The position numbers were made by a program, and so were the translations under genes. From a virus: 64,000 nucleotides of DNA. The notes below the pieces were generated by a model. The model was not told the origin of the DNA and did no database searches. It saw only the letters and a list, made by a program, of their open reading frames with translations. Shown one piece after another: positions 498-14,124 of this stretch; position 1 is the stretch's first letter; the number at the start of each line of letters is the position of its first letter. The stretch is taken from positions 1 to 64,000 of the IMG/VR virus record IMGVR_UViG_3300030329_004520. One strand, written 5' to 3'.

Positions 498-563
498 TGT
501 TACAATTTGTTACAAATAATGTGTAGAAAAACCTTGACTCATATGCGGTTTTATTCGTATATT
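498..563 (+). promoter_or_regulatory. TGTTACA-N3-TGTTACA box 1 plus sigma70-type promoter
   Basis: Box 498-514; TTGACT at 534, 18-nt spacer, TATATT; box-to--35 gap 19 nt. Confidence 0.7.
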
Positions 564-593: not shown

Positions 594-649
594 TGTTACA
601 ATTTGTTACAAATAAAAGCTTGTTTCATATAGTAAAAGTGTCGTATATT
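594..649 (+). promoter_or_regulatory. box 2 plus promoter upstream of the structured non-coding region
   Basis: Box 594-610; 9-nt gap; TTGTTT at 620, 18-nt spacer, TATATT 644-649. Confidence 0.7.
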
Positions 650-675
650 ATAGTATAAGATTTAGATTTTTGAAA

Positions 676-1056
676 TATTTCCTGGCCGGAATAGGGATTC
701 AGTATGAAAGTGACTGAATAATAGCTTCCTAAAAAGGTTATAAGGTGTCCGAGTAAGGCCTGTAGTGGGCGATACGAGAGTCAATCTGACGGAGTATCCT
801 AGGCGTAACTGCCTTCGAAAGGAACTTGGTAGAACAAAAAAGATACTTGGTATTTTTTAGCTACTAATGAGAGTAAACCAAAATCTCTCCCACACCAGAA
901 GAATCCCAAAAAATTAGAAATGAGAGAGGTGCTCATACTTGTAAGTAGTATTTATACTACCTCTACCAGTCCCTCAGCACTCTCTCCTCACATATTAAAA
1001 TAGGTTACAGACGGTGTACACCATGGCCCTTAGTTTTACTCCTTTCTCTGAGGGCC
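676..1056 (+). ncRNA. candidate structured non-coding RNA(s)
   Basis: No ORF in the track, GC above background, many stems (GGGATTC 694/GAATCCC 901; GATAC/GTATC; TTGGTAG/CTACTAA; GAGAGAGGTGCT/AGCACTCTCTC; GGCCCTTAG/CTGAGGGCC). Confidence 0.55.
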
Positions 1057-1064
1057 TAAAAACT

Positions 1065-1119
1065 TGTTACAAATTGTTACAATTCTTTTCTTGTTTCCTA
1101 CCTCAAATGTTCGTATATT
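1065..1119 (+). promoter_or_regulatory. box 3 plus promoter of the AAA+ ATPase
   Basis: Box 1065-1081; 9-nt gap; TTGTTT-N17-TATATT. Confidence 0.75.
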
Positions 1120-1154
1120 ATATTGTAAGTTAAATGATAAAAAAGGAGTTATAT

Positions 1155-2345
1155 ATGTCAAAACAAAATTCACCGGAAATCTTAGTTCAAGTCGAGAAAT
1201 CAGGTAATCGTTACAATGCGTATGATACTGATGGAATTAAGAGGACTTCTGAGATTTCTACAACTACTAGGAAACGAGCTTATGAGAATGATTCTTATAT
1301 AGGTAAGTTCCCTACTGCTACTGGTCGTCACTATTGGAGACTAGTTCCTAAATCTGCTGTTGATGTAGATTCTACAAATTCGGCGTCTAACGAAGAAATT
1401 TCGTCAGTTGATATACCTACTGAGCATGCCGAAGTTCTTAATTTTATTCACTCTTCTTACTCACTTAAGCCTAAGGCTTTGATGATGTCAGAACTTAAAT
1501 GGAAATATCTTGTTCGTTCTGCTGTTAGGGGTAAGAATATTATGATGACTGGTCCTGCTGGTTGTGGTAAAACAATGGCTGCCAAGTGTGCTGTTAATGC
1601 GTTGGATAGACCAGACTTTTATTTTAACTTGGGTGCTACTCAAGACCCAAGAGCTACTCTTATTGGTAATACTCACTTCTCTCAAGAAGACGGTACTTAC
1701 TTCTCAGAGTCAGCATTCGTTAAAGCGATTCAAACACCAAACGCTGTGATACTATTAGATGAGTTATCTAGGGCTCACCCAGACGCTTGGAACATCTTAA
1801 TGACGGTATTAGACTATGGTCAGAGATATCTTAGATTAGATGAACAAGATGGTCAGAAAACTATTAATGTGGCTGAGGGTGTAACATTCATAGCAACGGC
1901 TAACATCGGTAATGAGTACACTAGTACTAGAGTGATGGACAAAGCTTTAATGGATAGGTTTACTATTGTAGAGATGGATGTACTATCAGAGGAAGACGAA
2001 AACTCCTTACTTACATATATGTTTCCTAATGTTGATAGTACGGTAATAAGTAATGTAGCTAAGATAGCGACTCTAACGAGAACAGAGTCTAATAGTGAGA
2101 CAGCGAGAATAACTAGTGGGATATCTACTAGAACAACGGTTGAACTATGTGGACTACTATATGACGGGTTCTCTCTAGAAGAGGGTGCTGAAGTTACTAT
2201 CTATCCTCAATTCGATTCTACGGGAGGTGTAGATTCTGAAAGAACCTTTGTTAAACAGATTGTTCAAAAATTCTGTGACGATGGTTCATCTGATGAGTTG
2301 TTCAACGAGGACGAGATGGCTGAGGCGGAAGAGGATAGTTACTAA
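1155..2345 (+). CDS. MoxR/CbbQ/CobS-like AAA+ ATPase
   Basis: Walker A GPAGCGKT, Walker B ILLDE, ATAN, DKALMDRF Arg finger; start placed at 1155 after AAAGGAGT (ORF open from 1134). Confidence 0.9.
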   Translation: MSKQNSPEILVQVEKSGNRYNAYDTDGIKRTSEISTTTRKRAYENDSYIGKFPTATGRHYWRLVPKSAVDVDSTNSASNEEISSVDIPTEHAEVLNFIHSSYSLKPKALMMSELKWKYLVRSAVRGKNIMMTGPAGCGKTMAAKCAVNALDRPDFYFNLGATQDPRATLIGNTHFSQEDGTYFSESAFVKAIQTPNAVILLDELSRAHPDAWNILMTVLDYGQRYLRLDEQDGQKTINVAEGVTFIATANIGNEYTSTRVMDKALMDRFTIVEMDVLSEEDENSLLTYMFPNVDSTVISNVAKIATLTRTESNSETARITSGISTRTTVELCGLLYDGFSLEEGAEVTIYPQFDSTGGVDSERTFVKQIVQKFCDDGSSDELFNEDEMAEAEEDSY

Positions 2346-12016: not shown

Positions 12017-12051
12017 AGTATATGATTGAAAGAAAAGAAAAAAGGAGTTTT

Positions 12052-14124
12052 ATGAGTTTTAATTCAAGAGATTTTAAAGGGTTTACTTTTCGTAGTGGTC
12101 CTGTTAAAAAAGATACTAAACAAAATTCATCTTTCTGGTGGAATGATAATAATGATGTTGATGTTGATGATTTTTTAGGTTTAGATACTGATGTTAAGAA
12201 AGGTAGAGATTTAGTTGCTTTAGCTGGTTATAAAAGAGCTATTAGTAACTTTGTTCAGATTGTTACAGAACAATCTATTCCAGTTGTTTTTAATAACAAT
12301 GATGAAAGTTTTACTGATGGTAAGAAAGTTGTTATCGGTGCTAACATTGATGATAAGAAATTTGATGTGGCTGTTGGACTTGCTCTTCACGAGGGTTCTC
12401 ACATTAAACTTTCTGATTTCAGTTTACTTAGAAATTTAGAGATTGAAATACCTCAAGAACTTTATGTTCAAGCTGAGAGTGTTGGTGTTGATAGAATGAC
12501 TACTATTTCAACTATCAAAAATTTATTAAACTACATAGAAGATAGAAGAATTGACTCTTTCATTTTCAGAACTTCTCCTGGTTACAAATCTTATTATCAC
12601 GCTATGTATGACAAGTATTTTTATTCAAAGAATGTAGATAAAGGTTTATTGTCTGATGAGTTCAGAACAGAAGAGATTGATTCTTATATGTTCAGAATTA
12701 TTAACTTACATAACAAGAACAGACAACTAACTGCTCTTAAAGGTTTAAAAGAAATCGCTTCTTTAATTAGTCTAGGTTCTATTTCAAGATTAAAAGATTC
12801 AGAAGATTGTTTCAAAGTTGCTTGTGATTGTATGTCAGTTATTCTTAATTCAATTGACCCTATCAAAACTAAATCACAAGATAGTGATTCTGATGACGAG
12901 AATAGTGATTCTCAAGAAGATAATAGTTCAGATGGTAGTAACACTATCTCTGATGAAGAACTTCAAGATAAGCTAGATTCTGATTCAGTTGTTCCTTCTG
13001 AAAATTCAGGTAACGATGATGGTTCTGATTCTGTTGAATTATCAGAGAGACAAAAATCTATGTTGAAAAAACACTTTGAGAAACAAGAAAAGTTTCTTGA
13101 TGGTGATGTTCAAAAAACAAAATTAAATAAAAAAGAGGTTTCAGATATTAAAGCTATCGATGAGTCGGGTGCTACTTATGAGAATGTTGGTTCTGATGTT
13201 CCTAAGTATTCTTGGGGTGGTGAAACTGGTAAAGGTACTAAATGTTTAGTTGTTAAAAACTTAACTCAATCACTTATTGAGTCAAGTCAATTCAGTTGTG
13301 CTTCTTCTTGGAATCAAAGAAGTTATTCTAATTATGAAGAATATAACTTTGTTGAAGAAGGTTTGAGACTTGGTTCTATGTTGGGTAGAAAACTTCAAGT
13401 TAGAGGTGAGGAGTCTCAGTTGAAATTTACAAGACAAGATTCAGGTAAGATTGACAAGAGATTGATTTCTGAATTAGGTTTCGGAAACTCAAATGTTTTC
13501 TCTCACACTCTTACTGAAAGATATAACAAAGCTTACTTACACATTTCGGTTGACGCTTCTGGTTCAATGGGTGGTAAGAAATGGAACAAGGCTATGACAT
13601 CAGCGGTGGCTATGATTAAGGCTTGTGATATGGCTGGAAACATTGATGTAGTTGTTTCAATTAGAACTACTCATAGTAAAAATAAATCTGATGTTCCTTT
13701 AATCTTAGTGGCTTATGATTCAAGAAAAGATAAATTAGTTAAAGTTAAAAATCTTTTCTCTTCTCTTGGTGTGAGTGGAACTACTCCTGAGGGATTATGT
13801 TTCGAGGCCATTGAGAAAGATTTGATTCCTGGAAATTCTAATCAAGATAGTTACTTTGTGAACTATTCAGATGGACAACCTTACTACTCTAACAATGAAA
13901 TTTATTATTCAGGTATAGAAGCTGAGAGACACACTAAAAAAATGTGTGATGGTATGAGAGCTAAAGGTATTAGTGTGTTGAGTTACTTCATTGGTGGTAG
14001 TTATGAGTCTGAAAGAGATAACAAAGCTTTCACAGCGATGTATGGGAAAGACGCTGAGTTTATCAACGCTACTAATATGATGAGTGTGGCTAAAACAATG
14101 AACAAAAAGTTTTTAAGTAAATAA
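12052..14124 (+). CDS. CobT/NorD-like VWA protein with N-terminal HExxH domain
   Basis: LHEGSH, EDRRI, acidic linker, MIDAS DASGSM, GTTPEG, SDGQP; AAAGGAGT RBS (ORF open from 12022). Confidence 0.85.
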   Translation: MSFNSRDFKGFTFRSGPVKKDTKQNSSFWWNDNNDVDVDDFLGLDTDVKKGRDLVALAGYKRAISNFVQIVTEQSIPVVFNNNDESFTDGKKVVIGANIDDKKFDVAVGLALHEGSHIKLSDFSLLRNLEIEIPQELYVQAESVGVDRMTTISTIKNLLNYIEDRRIDSFIFRTSPGYKSYYHAMYDKYFYSKNVDKGLLSDEFRTEEIDSYMFRIINLHNKNRQLTALKGLKEIASLISLGSISRLKDSEDCFKVACDCMSVILNSIDPIKTKSQDSDSDDENSDSQEDNSSDGSNTISDEELQDKLDSDSVVPSENSGNDDGSDSVELSERQKSMLKKHFEKQEKFLDGDVQKTKLNKKEVSDIKAIDESGATYENVGSDVPKYSWGGETGKGTKCLVVKNLTQSLIESSQFSCASSWNQRSYSNYEEYNFVEEGLRLGSMLGRKLQVRGEESQLKFTRQDSGKIDKRLISELGFGNSNVFSHTLTERYNKAYLHISVDASGSMGGKKWNKAMTSAVAMIKACDMAGNIDVVVSIRTTHSKNKSDVPLILVAYDSRKDKLVKVKNLFSSLGVSGTTPEGLCFEAIEKDLIPGNSNQDSYFVNYSDGQPYYSNNEIYYSGIEAERHTKKMCDGMRAKGISVLSYFIGGSYESERDNKAFTAMYGKDAEFINATNMMSVAKTMNKKFLSK

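What the first reader, a model, noticed from the sequence alone, without database searches (positions are those of the whole stretch)
676..990. Large multi-stem non-coding RNA candidate behind two tandem boxed promoters
Seen: a GC-enriched tract without a long ORF in an otherwise gene-dense genome. Domain 1 (694-907) can be closed by GGGATTC/GAATCCC and holds stems ATAGCTT/AGGTTAT, GTGGG/CCCAC, GATAC[GTCA-ATC-TGAC]GTATC, AGGC/GCCT, TTGGTAG[AAAAGATAC/GTATTTTT]CTACTAA and GAGAG/CTCTC. An alternative hairpin ATTCAGT/ACTGAAT competes with the closing stem. Domain 2 (920-990) is a long interrupted hairpin. I do not recognise tRNA, tmRNA, RNase P or SRP hallmarks.
Basis: partly seen in the sequence, partly recalled or inferred. 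Interest (0 to 1): 0.7.

Follow-up and report, generated by a model that had tools for sequence, protein, structure and literature searches.

The report
Phage manA-type RNA fused to second module
The flagged stretch is a real folded, non-coding RNA gene of an uncultured marine phage, but its large part is a divergent relative of the already catalogued manA RNA, joined to a second conserved hairpin module that is in no RNA catalogue.

Summary
Window 679-907 folds into a ten-helix RNA and 922-990 into a long interrupted hairpin. Both are strongly supported by compensatory changes in relatives.

The novelty claim holds only in part.
- **Domain 1** is a divergent member of the manA RNA family, RF01745. 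It scores 38.4 bits against a cut-off of 55.2, with E 2.9e-8 over the full-length model. Related phage records carry manA copies above the cut-off (9 of 78 records).
- **Domain 2** is a separate module with no Rfam match. It occurs in 13 viral stretches and at least 65 marine metagenome contigs. It is nearly always followed by a hairpin whose loop resembles the 3' end of 16S rRNA (68 of 71), and usually by a T-run.
- **Upstream slot.** manA is only one of several modules found in front of domain 2 (12 of 62).
- **Loop pairing.** The loops of helices 8 and 9 of the manA part stay complementary through six different sequence states. This fits the kissing loops that a 2026 cryo-EM preprint reports for manA cages.

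My reading is a stand-alone composite RNA, not a switch for the next gene. Its biological role is inferred, not shown. This scan has noted manA-like RNAs many times before, and this 3' module once, on other DNA.

The parts
498..563 (+). Distal boxed promoter: box 498-515, -35 TTGACT 534-539, -10 TATATT 558-563
   Evidence: Box repeat: one search gives 7 matches, 6 of them on the + strand, against 0.03 expected. Consensus promoter scan scores 10 of 12. No transcription start was mapped.
594..649 (+). Proximal boxed promoter: box 594-611, -35 TTGTTT 620-625, -10 TATATT 644-649
   Evidence: The same -10 and the same leader stand in front of the RNA in relatives. The start site, near 660, is inferred.
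665..691 (+). Conserved 5' leader GATTTTTGAAATA (665-677) and a possible short hairpin TTCC/GGAA (679-682 with 688-691)
   Evidence: The leader is conserved in 14 of 14 aligned relatives. It also precedes other cargo RNAs. The short hairpin was not tested by pair counts.
694..907 (+). manA-type RNA core (window type). Closing stem 694-700/901-907. Conserved strand 701-720 with TGACTGAATAA. Hairpin 721-741. Junction stem 748-750/821-823 enclosing hairpins 758-770, 771-798 and 801-814. Long hairpin 826-867. Hairpin 869-889.
   Evidence: cmscan RF01745 at 687-896, 38.4 bits, E 2.9e-8. Covariation in all helices except 721-741, which changes on one side only. Coordinates.
845..851 (+). Apex of long hairpin 8; TTGGT (847-851) is complementary to ACCAA in loop 9
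   Evidence: complementarity is kept through six sequence states in 16 relatives.
874..884 (+). Loop of hairpin 9 (TAAACCAAAAT), holding ACCAA
922..990 (+). Domain 2, a separate conserved module. Outer stem 922-933 with 976-986. Invariant CATACTT 934-940 and CAGTCCCTC 967-975; ACT pairs with AGT. Variable hairpin 941-966. Tail CTCA 987-990.
   Evidence: G-U pairs (14 of 25 at one position) fit only the + strand. No Rfam match.
1025..1056 (+). Hairpin GGCCCTTAG/CTGAGGGCC with loop TTTTACTCCTTTCT, which resembles the 3' end of 16S rRNA. It sits at the terminator position, but in this window no T-run follows.
   Evidence: Fold. Relatives keep the loop while the stems differ completely. 68 of 71 instances have the motif and 56 of 71 have a T-run. 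The terminator scan found 0 in the window stretch.
1065..1119 (+). Third boxed promoter, serving the AAA ATPase gene (1134/1149-2345)
   Evidence: AAA_5 domain, E 3.4e-18.

Best explanation
Window ~660-1056 is one stand-alone non-coding RNA gene of an uncultured marine myovirus. It is driven by two tandem sigma-70-type promoters and built from modules.

**Module 1 (679-907)** is a divergent form of the manA RNA. A closing stem encloses a conserved single strand, one hairpin, a three-hairpin junction, a long hairpin and a short hairpin.

**Module 2 (922-990)** is a separately conserved hairpin with an invariant internal loop. In marine phage DNA it is almost always followed by one or two hairpins. 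These show a CU-rich loop resembling the 3' end of 16S rRNA, here at 1025-1056.

**Shown:** the fold, the family resemblance, the modular make-up, and the co-varying complementarity between the apex of hairpin 8 and the loop of hairpin 9.

**Inferred, manA part:** it self-associates through that 8-9 loop pairing, as reported for manA pentamers, decamers and a 60-mer cage in vitro.

**Inferred, CU-rich loop:** it pairs with Shine-Dalgarno sequences such as the AAAGGAGT sites of the neighbouring box-driven genes. The RNA would then act in trans on translation rather than as a switch for the next gene.
For: **Identity of module 1.**
- Full-length match to RF01745.
- The same lineage holds manA above the cut-off: 7 of 49 and 2 of 29 records. 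At E <= 0.01 the counts are 13 of 49 and 3 of 29.
- Fold: 97.4% of cells paired, 29 of 55 pairs compensatory, 0 of 500 shuffles.

**Loop 8 to loop 9.**
- All 16 sequences keep 4-7 Watson-Crick pairs, through six states: TTGGT/ACCAA here, and five others.
- Own partners give a mean run of 5.4 pairs and -5.0 kcal/mol. Swapped partners give 4.2 pairs and -2.6 kcal/mol. 0 of 20000 permutations do as well.
- The Rfam consensus also shows complementary letters in these two loops (consensus lines).
- The preprint 10.64898/2026.07.01.735769 names L8-L9' and L5-L7' kissing loops as pentamer contacts (section 8 read).

**Module 2.**
- 65 of 80 fetched metagenome loci carry the full motif with a paired outer stem.
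- 99.2% of cells paired, 7 of 15 pairs compensatory.
- 13 hits in 96 viral sources.

**Independence of the modules.**
- In L014 a promoter stands directly in front of module 2.
- Among 62 instances with enough upstream DNA, manA precedes it in 12, a GCGGARTAAG element in 23 and a double T-loop element in 6.

**A gene of its own.**
- It has its own promoters.
- A third promoter lies between it and the AAA gene.
- T-run terminators follow in 56 of 71 relatives.

**RNA libraries.** Marine RNA-library contigs from two studies cover 691-901 and 842-999. One matches 740-901 exactly, and one bridges the module 1/2 joint.

**Possible targets.** AAAGGAGT occurs 8 times against 3.25 expected. 6 of the 7 plus-strand sites lie in the first 12.1 kb.
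Against: - The manA score is below Rfam's cut-off (38.4 against 55.2).
- Rfam's own closing stem is not matched. The window closes 10 bases further out.
- The second reported contact (L5-L7) is not supported here. Loop 7 GTAACT is invariant, while loop 5 varies (A, G or C) without compensation.
- The 8-9 pairing needs the top two pairs of hairpin 8 to open.
- Sequence alone cannot tell pairing between molecules from pairing within one.
- One relative (L272) has an uncompensated change.
- The permutation test does not correct for relatedness.
- The window's last hairpin has no T-run, so read-through into the AAA gene is likely.
- RNA-library contigs can hold DNA and show neither strand nor ends. 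One such contig includes a -10 box.
- No experiment links the CU-rich loop to any target.
- The host is unknown.
Confidence: 0.6

Rival explanations
1. Cis-acting leader or riboswitch. The manA-type fold senses a ligand or condition and sets read-through at the 1025-1056 hairpin into the AAA (CobS-like) ATPase gene. This is how manA was first proposed to work.
For: - Rfam files manA as cis-regulatory, and Weinberg 2010 rates it a probable riboswitch (passages read).
- The RNA lies upstream of a gene on the same strand.
- The window's last hairpin lacks a T-run, so transcripts may run on.
- The same order, manA before the AAA gene, is seen in L004, L005 and L010.
Against: - A complete boxed promoter (1065-1119) lies between the RNA and the gene.
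- 8 of the other 12 viral instances of module 2 lack manA, most of them upstream of the same AAA gene.
- Most canonical manA copies of the lineage lie about 2.5 kb downstream of that gene or elsewhere.
- 56 of 71 relatives have a T-run after the 3' hairpin.
- No alternative pairing between the manA part and the terminator was found.
Confidence: 0.12
2. Two unrelated RNAs that merely share a promoter. The primary transcript is cut between 907 and 922. manA and the module 2 plus CU-loop RNA then act separately, the latter as an ordinary base-pairing small RNA.
For: - Module 2 with its hairpin is a gene of its own in L014.
- Upstream modules are interchangeable.
- An A-rich linker at 908-921 could be a nuclease site (sequence).
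Against: - One RNA-library contig runs across the joint at 842-999, though contigs cannot exclude processing.
- The fusion recurs in 12 of 62 instances.
- No processing signal was identified.
Confidence: 0.2
3. Y-RNA-like or tRNA-like particle. The upstream module is its effector end.
For: - A conserved bulged stem formed by the 5' and 3' strands carries a variable far end.
- Sister loci carry two T-loop motifs upstream (6 of 62).
- The phage encodes a CCA-adding-type enzyme (PolyA_pol head domain, E 4.9e-31).
Against: - No TROVE/Ro protein was found. The 700-aa VWA-type protein gives only a weak CobT_C hit (E 0.0034) and no PDB relative.
- No Rfam Y-RNA match.
- ARAGORN finds no tRNA in these modules.
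Confidence: 0.08

Closest known systems
manA RNA motif (Rfam RF01745; Weinberg et al. 2010, PMC2864571; cryo-EM preprint 10.64898/2026.07.01.735769)
   Same: - Full-length alignment to the model.
- Shared blocks: TGACTGAATAA, TAAGGT, GTAGTG, GTAAC, and TGAGAGTAAAC...AATCTCTC.
- The same order of hairpins: one hairpin, a three-hairpin junction, a long hairpin and a short hairpin inside a closing stem.
- Found in marine phages.
- Complementary loops 8 and 9.
   Different: - Scores below the cut-off (38.4 against 55.2).
- The closing stem is moved outwards, with about 10 extra bases on each side.
- Hairpin 6 is extended with an internal loop instead of ending in the consensus GAAA loop.
- Loop 7 is GTAACT, not the consensus ACCA, so the L5-L7 match is lost.
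- It is its own transcription unit and is fused to a 3' module. Neither feature appears in the manA passages of the three papers I read.
Modular marine phage RNA with double T-arm
   Same: It has the same 3' core (module 2) and the same end hairpin with a 16S-3'-end-like loop. I found this architecture in L013, L237, L240, L259, L265 and L275.
   Different: There the upstream slot holds a tRNA-like element with two T-arms. Here it holds a manA-type RNA.
C/U-rich-loop base-pairing small RNAs of Gram-positive bacteria (RsaE/RoxS, RNAIII hairpins); recalled, not checked in any call
   Same: A CU-rich loop is displayed on a terminator-type hairpin and is complementary to Shine-Dalgarno sequences.
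   Different: No sequence relation. This one is phage-encoded and is preceded by large structured modules. No target has been shown.
RNA-only multimers ROOL, GOLLD and OLE; recalled from the introduction of the preprint and from memory
   Same: Phage-associated structured RNAs that assemble without protein.
   Different: Those are several hundred nucleotides long and unrelated in sequence. No Rfam match to them was found here.

Membership tests
manA RNA (RF01745) | Covariance-model score at or above Rfam's gathering score (55.2 bits) | tested here: not met
   38.4 bits, E 2.9e-8 for the 821-base search. E 6.9e-10 for the 82.5-kb record. No hit at curated thresholds.
manA RNA (RF01745) | Match over the whole model with the conserved sequence blocks | tested here: met
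   Model positions 1-192 of 192 are aligned. The blocks TGACTGAATAA, TAAGGTG, GTAGTG and TGAGAGTAAAC..AAAATCTCTCC align with high posterior probability.
manA RNA (RF01745) | Order of helices: closing stem; hairpin; stem enclosing three hairpins; long hairpin; short hairpin | tested here: met
   All these helices are supported by pair counts on 16 sequences. The closing stem lies at 694-700/901-907, not where the Rfam model places it.
manA RNA (RF01745) | Loop 8 to loop 9 complementarity (L8-L9' kissing loop of the cryo-EM preprint) | tested here: met
   16 of 16 sequences have 4-7 Watson-Crick pairs, through six co-varying states. I mapped my helix numbers onto the preprint's from the Rfam consensus. 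Its supplementary figures could not be seen.
manA RNA (RF01745) | Loop 5 to loop 7 complementarity (L5-L7' kissing loop) | tested here: inconclusive
   Only AGT/ACT (3 pairs) is possible. Loop 7 is invariant. Loop 5 reads A in 9, G in 3 and C in 2 of 14 sequences, without compensation.
manA RNA (RF01745) | Position in the 5' untranslated region of a gene (proposed, not proven, for the family) | tested here: not met
   Its own promoters, a hairpin at the terminator position, and a separate promoter in front of the next gene.
manA RNA (RF01745) | Assembly into pentamer-based RNA-only oligomers | not testable with these tools
   Needs native gels, SEC or cryo-EM of the transcript.
Any Rfam family, for module 2 (922-990) | A covariance-model match | tested here: not met
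   Nothing significant overlaps 922-990 at E up to 10: only two chance-level matches, to eukaryotic snoRNA and lncRNA models (E 6.1 and 9.1), reach its first bases. Nothing matches in seven relatives at E up to 0.1.
Y RNA / YrlA | Partner Ro (TROVE) protein encoded nearby, plus an Rfam Y-RNA match | tested here: not met
   No TROVE domain in the 8 proteins scanned. Searches agree. No Y-RNA hit.

The most novel reading that the evidence does not exclude
The fusion is functional. The manA part assembles through its co-varying loop 8-loop 9 contact into pentamer-based particles or cages inside the infected cell. Each subunit then carries a module 2 arm ending in a loop like the 3' end of 16S rRNA. 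The result would be a multivalent RNA particle that captures Shine-Dalgarno sequences, or factors that bind the 16S 3' end, to reprogramme translation. This would give a first biological role to RNA-only cages.
Probability: 0.12. Interest if true: 0.85.

Novelty: new variant of a known kind. Interest (0 to 1): 0.45.

Why it matters
manA has been an orphan RNA since 2010, and the passages read of a 2023 cyanophage paper still call its role unverified. A 2026 preprint shows that it builds RNA-only cages in vitro, with no known role in cells.

This locus adds three things:
- **A gene, not a leader.** In a marine myovirus lineage, a manA variant is a promoter-driven gene rather than a leader of another gene.
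- **A contact kept by selection.** One of the contacts seen by cryo-EM (loop 8 with loop 9) is maintained through compensatory changes. This argues that the pairing matters in nature.
- **Part of a kit of RNA modules.** manA is one interchangeable module placed in front of a widespread marine RNA core and a 16S-like loop, neither of which is in Rfam.

Each point can be tested directly with in-vitro transcripts and compensatory mutants.

Tried and rejected
- **Nucleotide search of 50,697 phage records** with 400-1200 found no match.
- **tRNA and tmRNA.** ARAGORN found none in the window. In ten relatives it found none in the RNA slot; its 3 tRNA genes lie elsewhere in L010 and L014, although L013-type loci carry T-loop motifs.
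- **nhmmer with the single window sequence** found the whole region in only 3 of 80 loci.
- **MAFFT plus RNAalifold on 14 sequences** lost helices 4, 8 and 9 through misalignment and predicted only 38 pairs. I therefore used a model-fitted alignment and say so.
- **The stem GGTG 744-747 with CACC 893-896**, predicted from 4 sequences, is 87% paired with no covariation and mismatches in 7 of 54 cells. I dropped it.
- **The pattern CATACTT-N18-48-CAGTCCCTC in viral contigs** gave mostly chance matches. Only 9 of 86 matches had a paired outer stem, and 2 of those were new.
- **The exact 3' pattern in viral contigs** gave 11 stretches. Ten were already known, and one (L103) sat in unrelated, probably coding DNA.
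- **The metagenome scan.** 15 of the 80 fetched loci failed my filter. Some are cut by contig ends, some carry variants, and about 6 are chance matches.
- **A profile of the canonical manA copies** of the lineage found nothing beside module 2.
- **The Ro/Y-RNA idea** found no TROVE protein.
- **Literature.** A full-text search for phage small RNAs mimicking the anti-Shine-Dalgarno sequence listed nothing on this module (listing only). Searches for manA gave three relevant papers: Weinberg 2010 and the S-CREM1 paper (passages read) and the cryo-EM preprint (outline, section 8 and passages read).
- **Supplementary files were closed.** The manA alignments and gene contexts of Weinberg 2010, and the preprint's secondary-structure figures, may bear on my helix numbering.
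- **Read laying.** The window bins 300-512, 584-654 and 1010-1435 had no cover in four RNA-library runs. That is no evidence of absence. Depths there cannot rank expression.
- **Not examined.** I did not check systematically whether canonical copies of the lineage keep the loop 8-loop 9 match.

Full report
**What is there.** The window is the first 64 kb of an 82.5-kb IMG/VR virus record, estimated 46% complete.
- Its genes mark it as a marine myovirus. They include a baseplate wedge protein, PhoH, peptide deformylase, primase, RimK, a CCA-adding-type enzyme and an AAA_5 ATPase.
- The ATPase is 48-51% identical to proteins of Microcystis phage Mel-JY01 and of an uncultured 484-kb phage.
- Between the gene ending at 382 and the ATPase gene (1134/1149-2345) no ORF exceeds 47 aa.
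- The stretch holds three copies of an 18-base box, each followed by TTGnnn, 17-18 bases and TATATT. Two stand in tandem before the flagged region (498-563 and 594-649). One stands after it (1065-1119).

**Checking the observation.** The single-sequence fold reproduces most of them, but its energy is only modestly better than shuffles: z -1.94 on the plus strand and -1.16 on the minus strand. The proof comes from relatives.
- Through the ATPase protein I fetched 80 related viral loci; 129 of 136 candidates were confirmed and the best 80 kept. Three of them (L004, L005, L010) hold the whole region.
- RNAalifold on the four sequences predicted 58 pairs, 16 of them with compensatory change.
- I turned this into a covariance model with 55 pairs. 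It found 16 strong matches: the window, the three viral loci and 12 metagenome loci, two of them cut by contig ends.
- On their alignment 97.4% of 796 cells are standard pairs and 29 of 55 pairs change on both sides. No shuffle of 500 reaches this, and sliding the partners by 1-3 columns drops pairing to 39-49%. The alignment is fitted to the model, which favours the structure. The unfitted result points the same way.
- Frequent G-U pairs fix the strand as plus.

**What domain 1 is.** At Rfam's curated thresholds the window has no hit.
- With E-value reporting, 687-896 aligns to the entire manA model RF01745: 38.4 bits against a cut-off of 55.2, E 2.9e-8. Over the whole record E is 6.9e-10.
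- The conserved blocks of manA are all present and in order.
- The same model run on the relatives' records finds manA in 13 of 49 and 3 of 29 at E <= 0.01. It exceeds the cut-off in 7 and 2 of them, at 57-73 bits. L022 and L053 could not be searched.
- So the lineage carries bona fide manA RNAs, and the window has a divergent form that I call the window type.
- It differs from the Rfam consensus in four ways: an outward-shifted closing stem (694-700/901-907), an extended hairpin 6 in place of a GAAA-capped one, loop 7 reading GTAACT, and a conserved strand CACACCAGAAG before the 3' half of the closing stem.
- Canonical copies in sister phages mostly lie about 2.5 kb downstream of the ATPase gene. 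They are often preceded by a weak window-type match overlapping them, that is, tandem or double cores.

**What is known of manA.**
- Weinberg et al. 2010 described it as a probable cis-regulatory RNA and riboswitch candidate of marine bacteria and cyanophages (passages read).
- A 2023 cyanophage paper still calls its role unverified (passages).
- A July 2026 preprint reports by cryo-EM that manA RNAs form pentamer-based decamers and a 60-subunit cage. These are held by kissing loops L5-L7' and L8-L9', or in another variant by L6-P6', L5-L7' and L3-L8' (outline, section 8 and passages read).
- In the Rfam consensus the loops of the long hairpin and the last hairpin are mutually complementary, as are those of the first and third hairpins of the junction (consensus lines). 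I took these to be L8/L9 and L5/L7.

**A test of the contacts.** In all 16 window-type sequences the apex of hairpin 8 can pair with the loop of hairpin 9 over 4-7 Watson-Crick pairs. The letters differ between groups:
- TTGGT/ACCAA (window)
- ATTGTAT/ATACAAT
- CTTGT/ACAAG
- TCGTA/TACGA
- CTTTGT/ACAAAG
- GATTAT/ATAATC

Own partners beat swapped partners: mean run 5.4 against 4.2 pairs, duplex energy -5.0 against -2.6 kcal/mol, 0 of 20000 permutations as good. There are caveats. The test ignores relatedness. One sequence (L272) has an uncompensated extra base. Pairing needs the two top pairs of hairpin 8 to open. Hairpin 8 is about 18 pairs long and hairpin 9 has 5 pairs, with one base between them, so a contact within one molecule looks strained. 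A contact between molecules, as in the preprint, is my inference. The L5-L7 contact is not supported: loop 7 never varies, while loop 5 varies without compensation.

**What domain 2 is.** The 3' strand of domain 2 (CAGTCCCTC, five free bases, TCTCTCCTCA) recurs in ten of the closest viral relatives, but only three of them have manA upstream.
- A metagenome scan with the 3' pattern returned at least 120 stretches. Of the 80 fetched, 68 have CATACTT within 130 bases upstream and 65 also have at least four contiguous pairs in the outer stem.
- On 25 sequences with short inserts, aligned without reference to structure, 99.2% of cells pair and 7 of 15 pairs are compensatory. The invariant pairs are partly fixed by my search pattern.
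- The fold has five parts. An 11-pair outer stem carries one bulge. An internal loop reads CAT against CCCTC. Three invariant pairs join ACT to AGT. A U-C mismatch follows. Last comes a hairpin of any length from 20 to over 110 bases.
- A model of it finds 13 instances in 96 viral sources and no weaker ones.
- Rfam has nothing for it.

**The larger unit.** Among 75 distinct instances, 71 have at least 150 bases downstream.
- 68 of these 71 show a YTCCTYTY motif within 260 bases. I estimate about 4% would by chance.
- 56 of the 71 have a run of five or more T.
- In the viral relatives this motif sits in the loop of a hairpin whose stem differs completely from phage to phage. That marks the loop as the selected part. 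It reads like the 3' end of 16S rRNA.
- In the window this hairpin is 1025-1056, with loop TTTTACTCCTTTCT, but no T-run follows.
- Upstream of module 2, among 62 instances with enough sequence, I found manA in 12, a GCGGARTAAG element in 23 (six of those together with manA) and a double T-loop element in 6.
- In L014 a promoter fires straight into module 2.
My counts agree with its outline.

**Transcription.** Five marine RNA-library runs from two studies hold small shares of the stretch.
- When four were laid, their contigs covered 691-901 and 842-999 as well as parts of the ATPase gene.
- One 162-base contig is identical to 740-901. One contig runs from hairpin 8 into module 2, across the joint.
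- These are assembled contigs. They show presence in RNA libraries, not strand, ends or level. One contig contains a -10 box, so DNA carry-over or upstream transcription cannot be excluded.

**How it most likely works.** The shown steps are the fold, the family, the modules and the co-varying loop pair. The inferred steps follow.
1. RNA polymerase starts near 660 and, from the distal promoter, near 570.
2. The manA part folds and associates with other copies through loop 8 and loop 9.
3. The 3' arm presents a CU-rich loop that can pair with Shine-Dalgarno sequences.

The octamer AAAGGAGT, the complement of the loop, occurs 8 times against 3.25 expected. 6 of the 7 plus-strand copies lie in the first 12.1 kb, just before start codons of box-driven genes. 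I rate the identity of the parts at about 0.85 and the proposed mode of action at about 0.3.

**Rivals.**
- A cis-acting riboswitch for the ATPase gene is weakened by three points: the intervening promoter, the interchangeability of the upstream module, and terminators in most relatives.
- Two separately acting RNAs made from one precursor.
- A Y-RNA-like particle, for which no Ro-type protein was found.

**Novelty and score.** The manA family is known, and its self-assembly is in a preprint. This scan has already flagged manA-like RNAs in at least 275 genomes and the 3' core once. What this locus adds is:
- a window-type variant below Rfam's threshold;
- natural covariation at one cage contact;
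- the fusion of manA to an uncatalogued marine RNA core with a 16S-like loop.

I class it as a new variant of a known kind and give it moderate interest.

Noticed in passing
L002:2655-2725, L006:2600-2675, L007:2415-2575 (two copies): A roughly 75-base element runs from GCGGAGTAAGAATCAAGAGAGATTCG through GGGGCAGTTCC to CTCCGC. Its ends pair. It fills the slot before module 2 in 23 of 62 marine instances, sometimes after manA. It has no Rfam match and ARAGORN calls no tRNA there.
   Followed up: partly
L013:2560-2650 and metagenome loci L237, L240, L259, L265, L275: Two tRNA-like T-loop motifs (GGTTCGAnTCC) lie upstream of module 2, yet ARAGORN calls no tRNA.
   Followed up: partly
L092/L095 (G044:15713-16092), L097/L099 (G057:6092-6479), and L082, L085, L087, L089: In sister phages the canonical manA copy is directly preceded by a second, weak manA-like match (19-31 bits). 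The two overlap by as little as 2 bases (G044) and up to about 50 (L097/L099, L082), so these look like tandem or double-core manA RNAs.
   Followed up: no
window 1142, 2851, 3134, 3522, 11084, 12041: The ribosome-binding octamer AAAGGAGT is concentrated in the first 12 kb, before start codons of genes behind boxed promoters. It is the exact complement of the loop at 1034-1047.
   Followed up: partly
window 999-1009 and many relatives: A conserved AATAGGTTAYA motif lies 5-15 bases after module 2 in 29 of 71 instances. Its role is unknown.
   Followed up: no
window 1134-2345 and 12022-14124: An AAA_5 (MoxR/CobS-like) ATPase and a 700-aa protein with a weak CobT-type VWA match each sit behind a boxed promoter. 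This may be a CobS/CobT-like pair, as in cyanophages.
   Followed up: partly
variable hairpin of module 2 in L111, L253, L256, L261, L262, L286: Many inserts share a sub-motif, TCTGG-stem-TTCGG-stem-CTAGATTAACTG. The variable arm therefore comes in recurring types.
   Followed up: no
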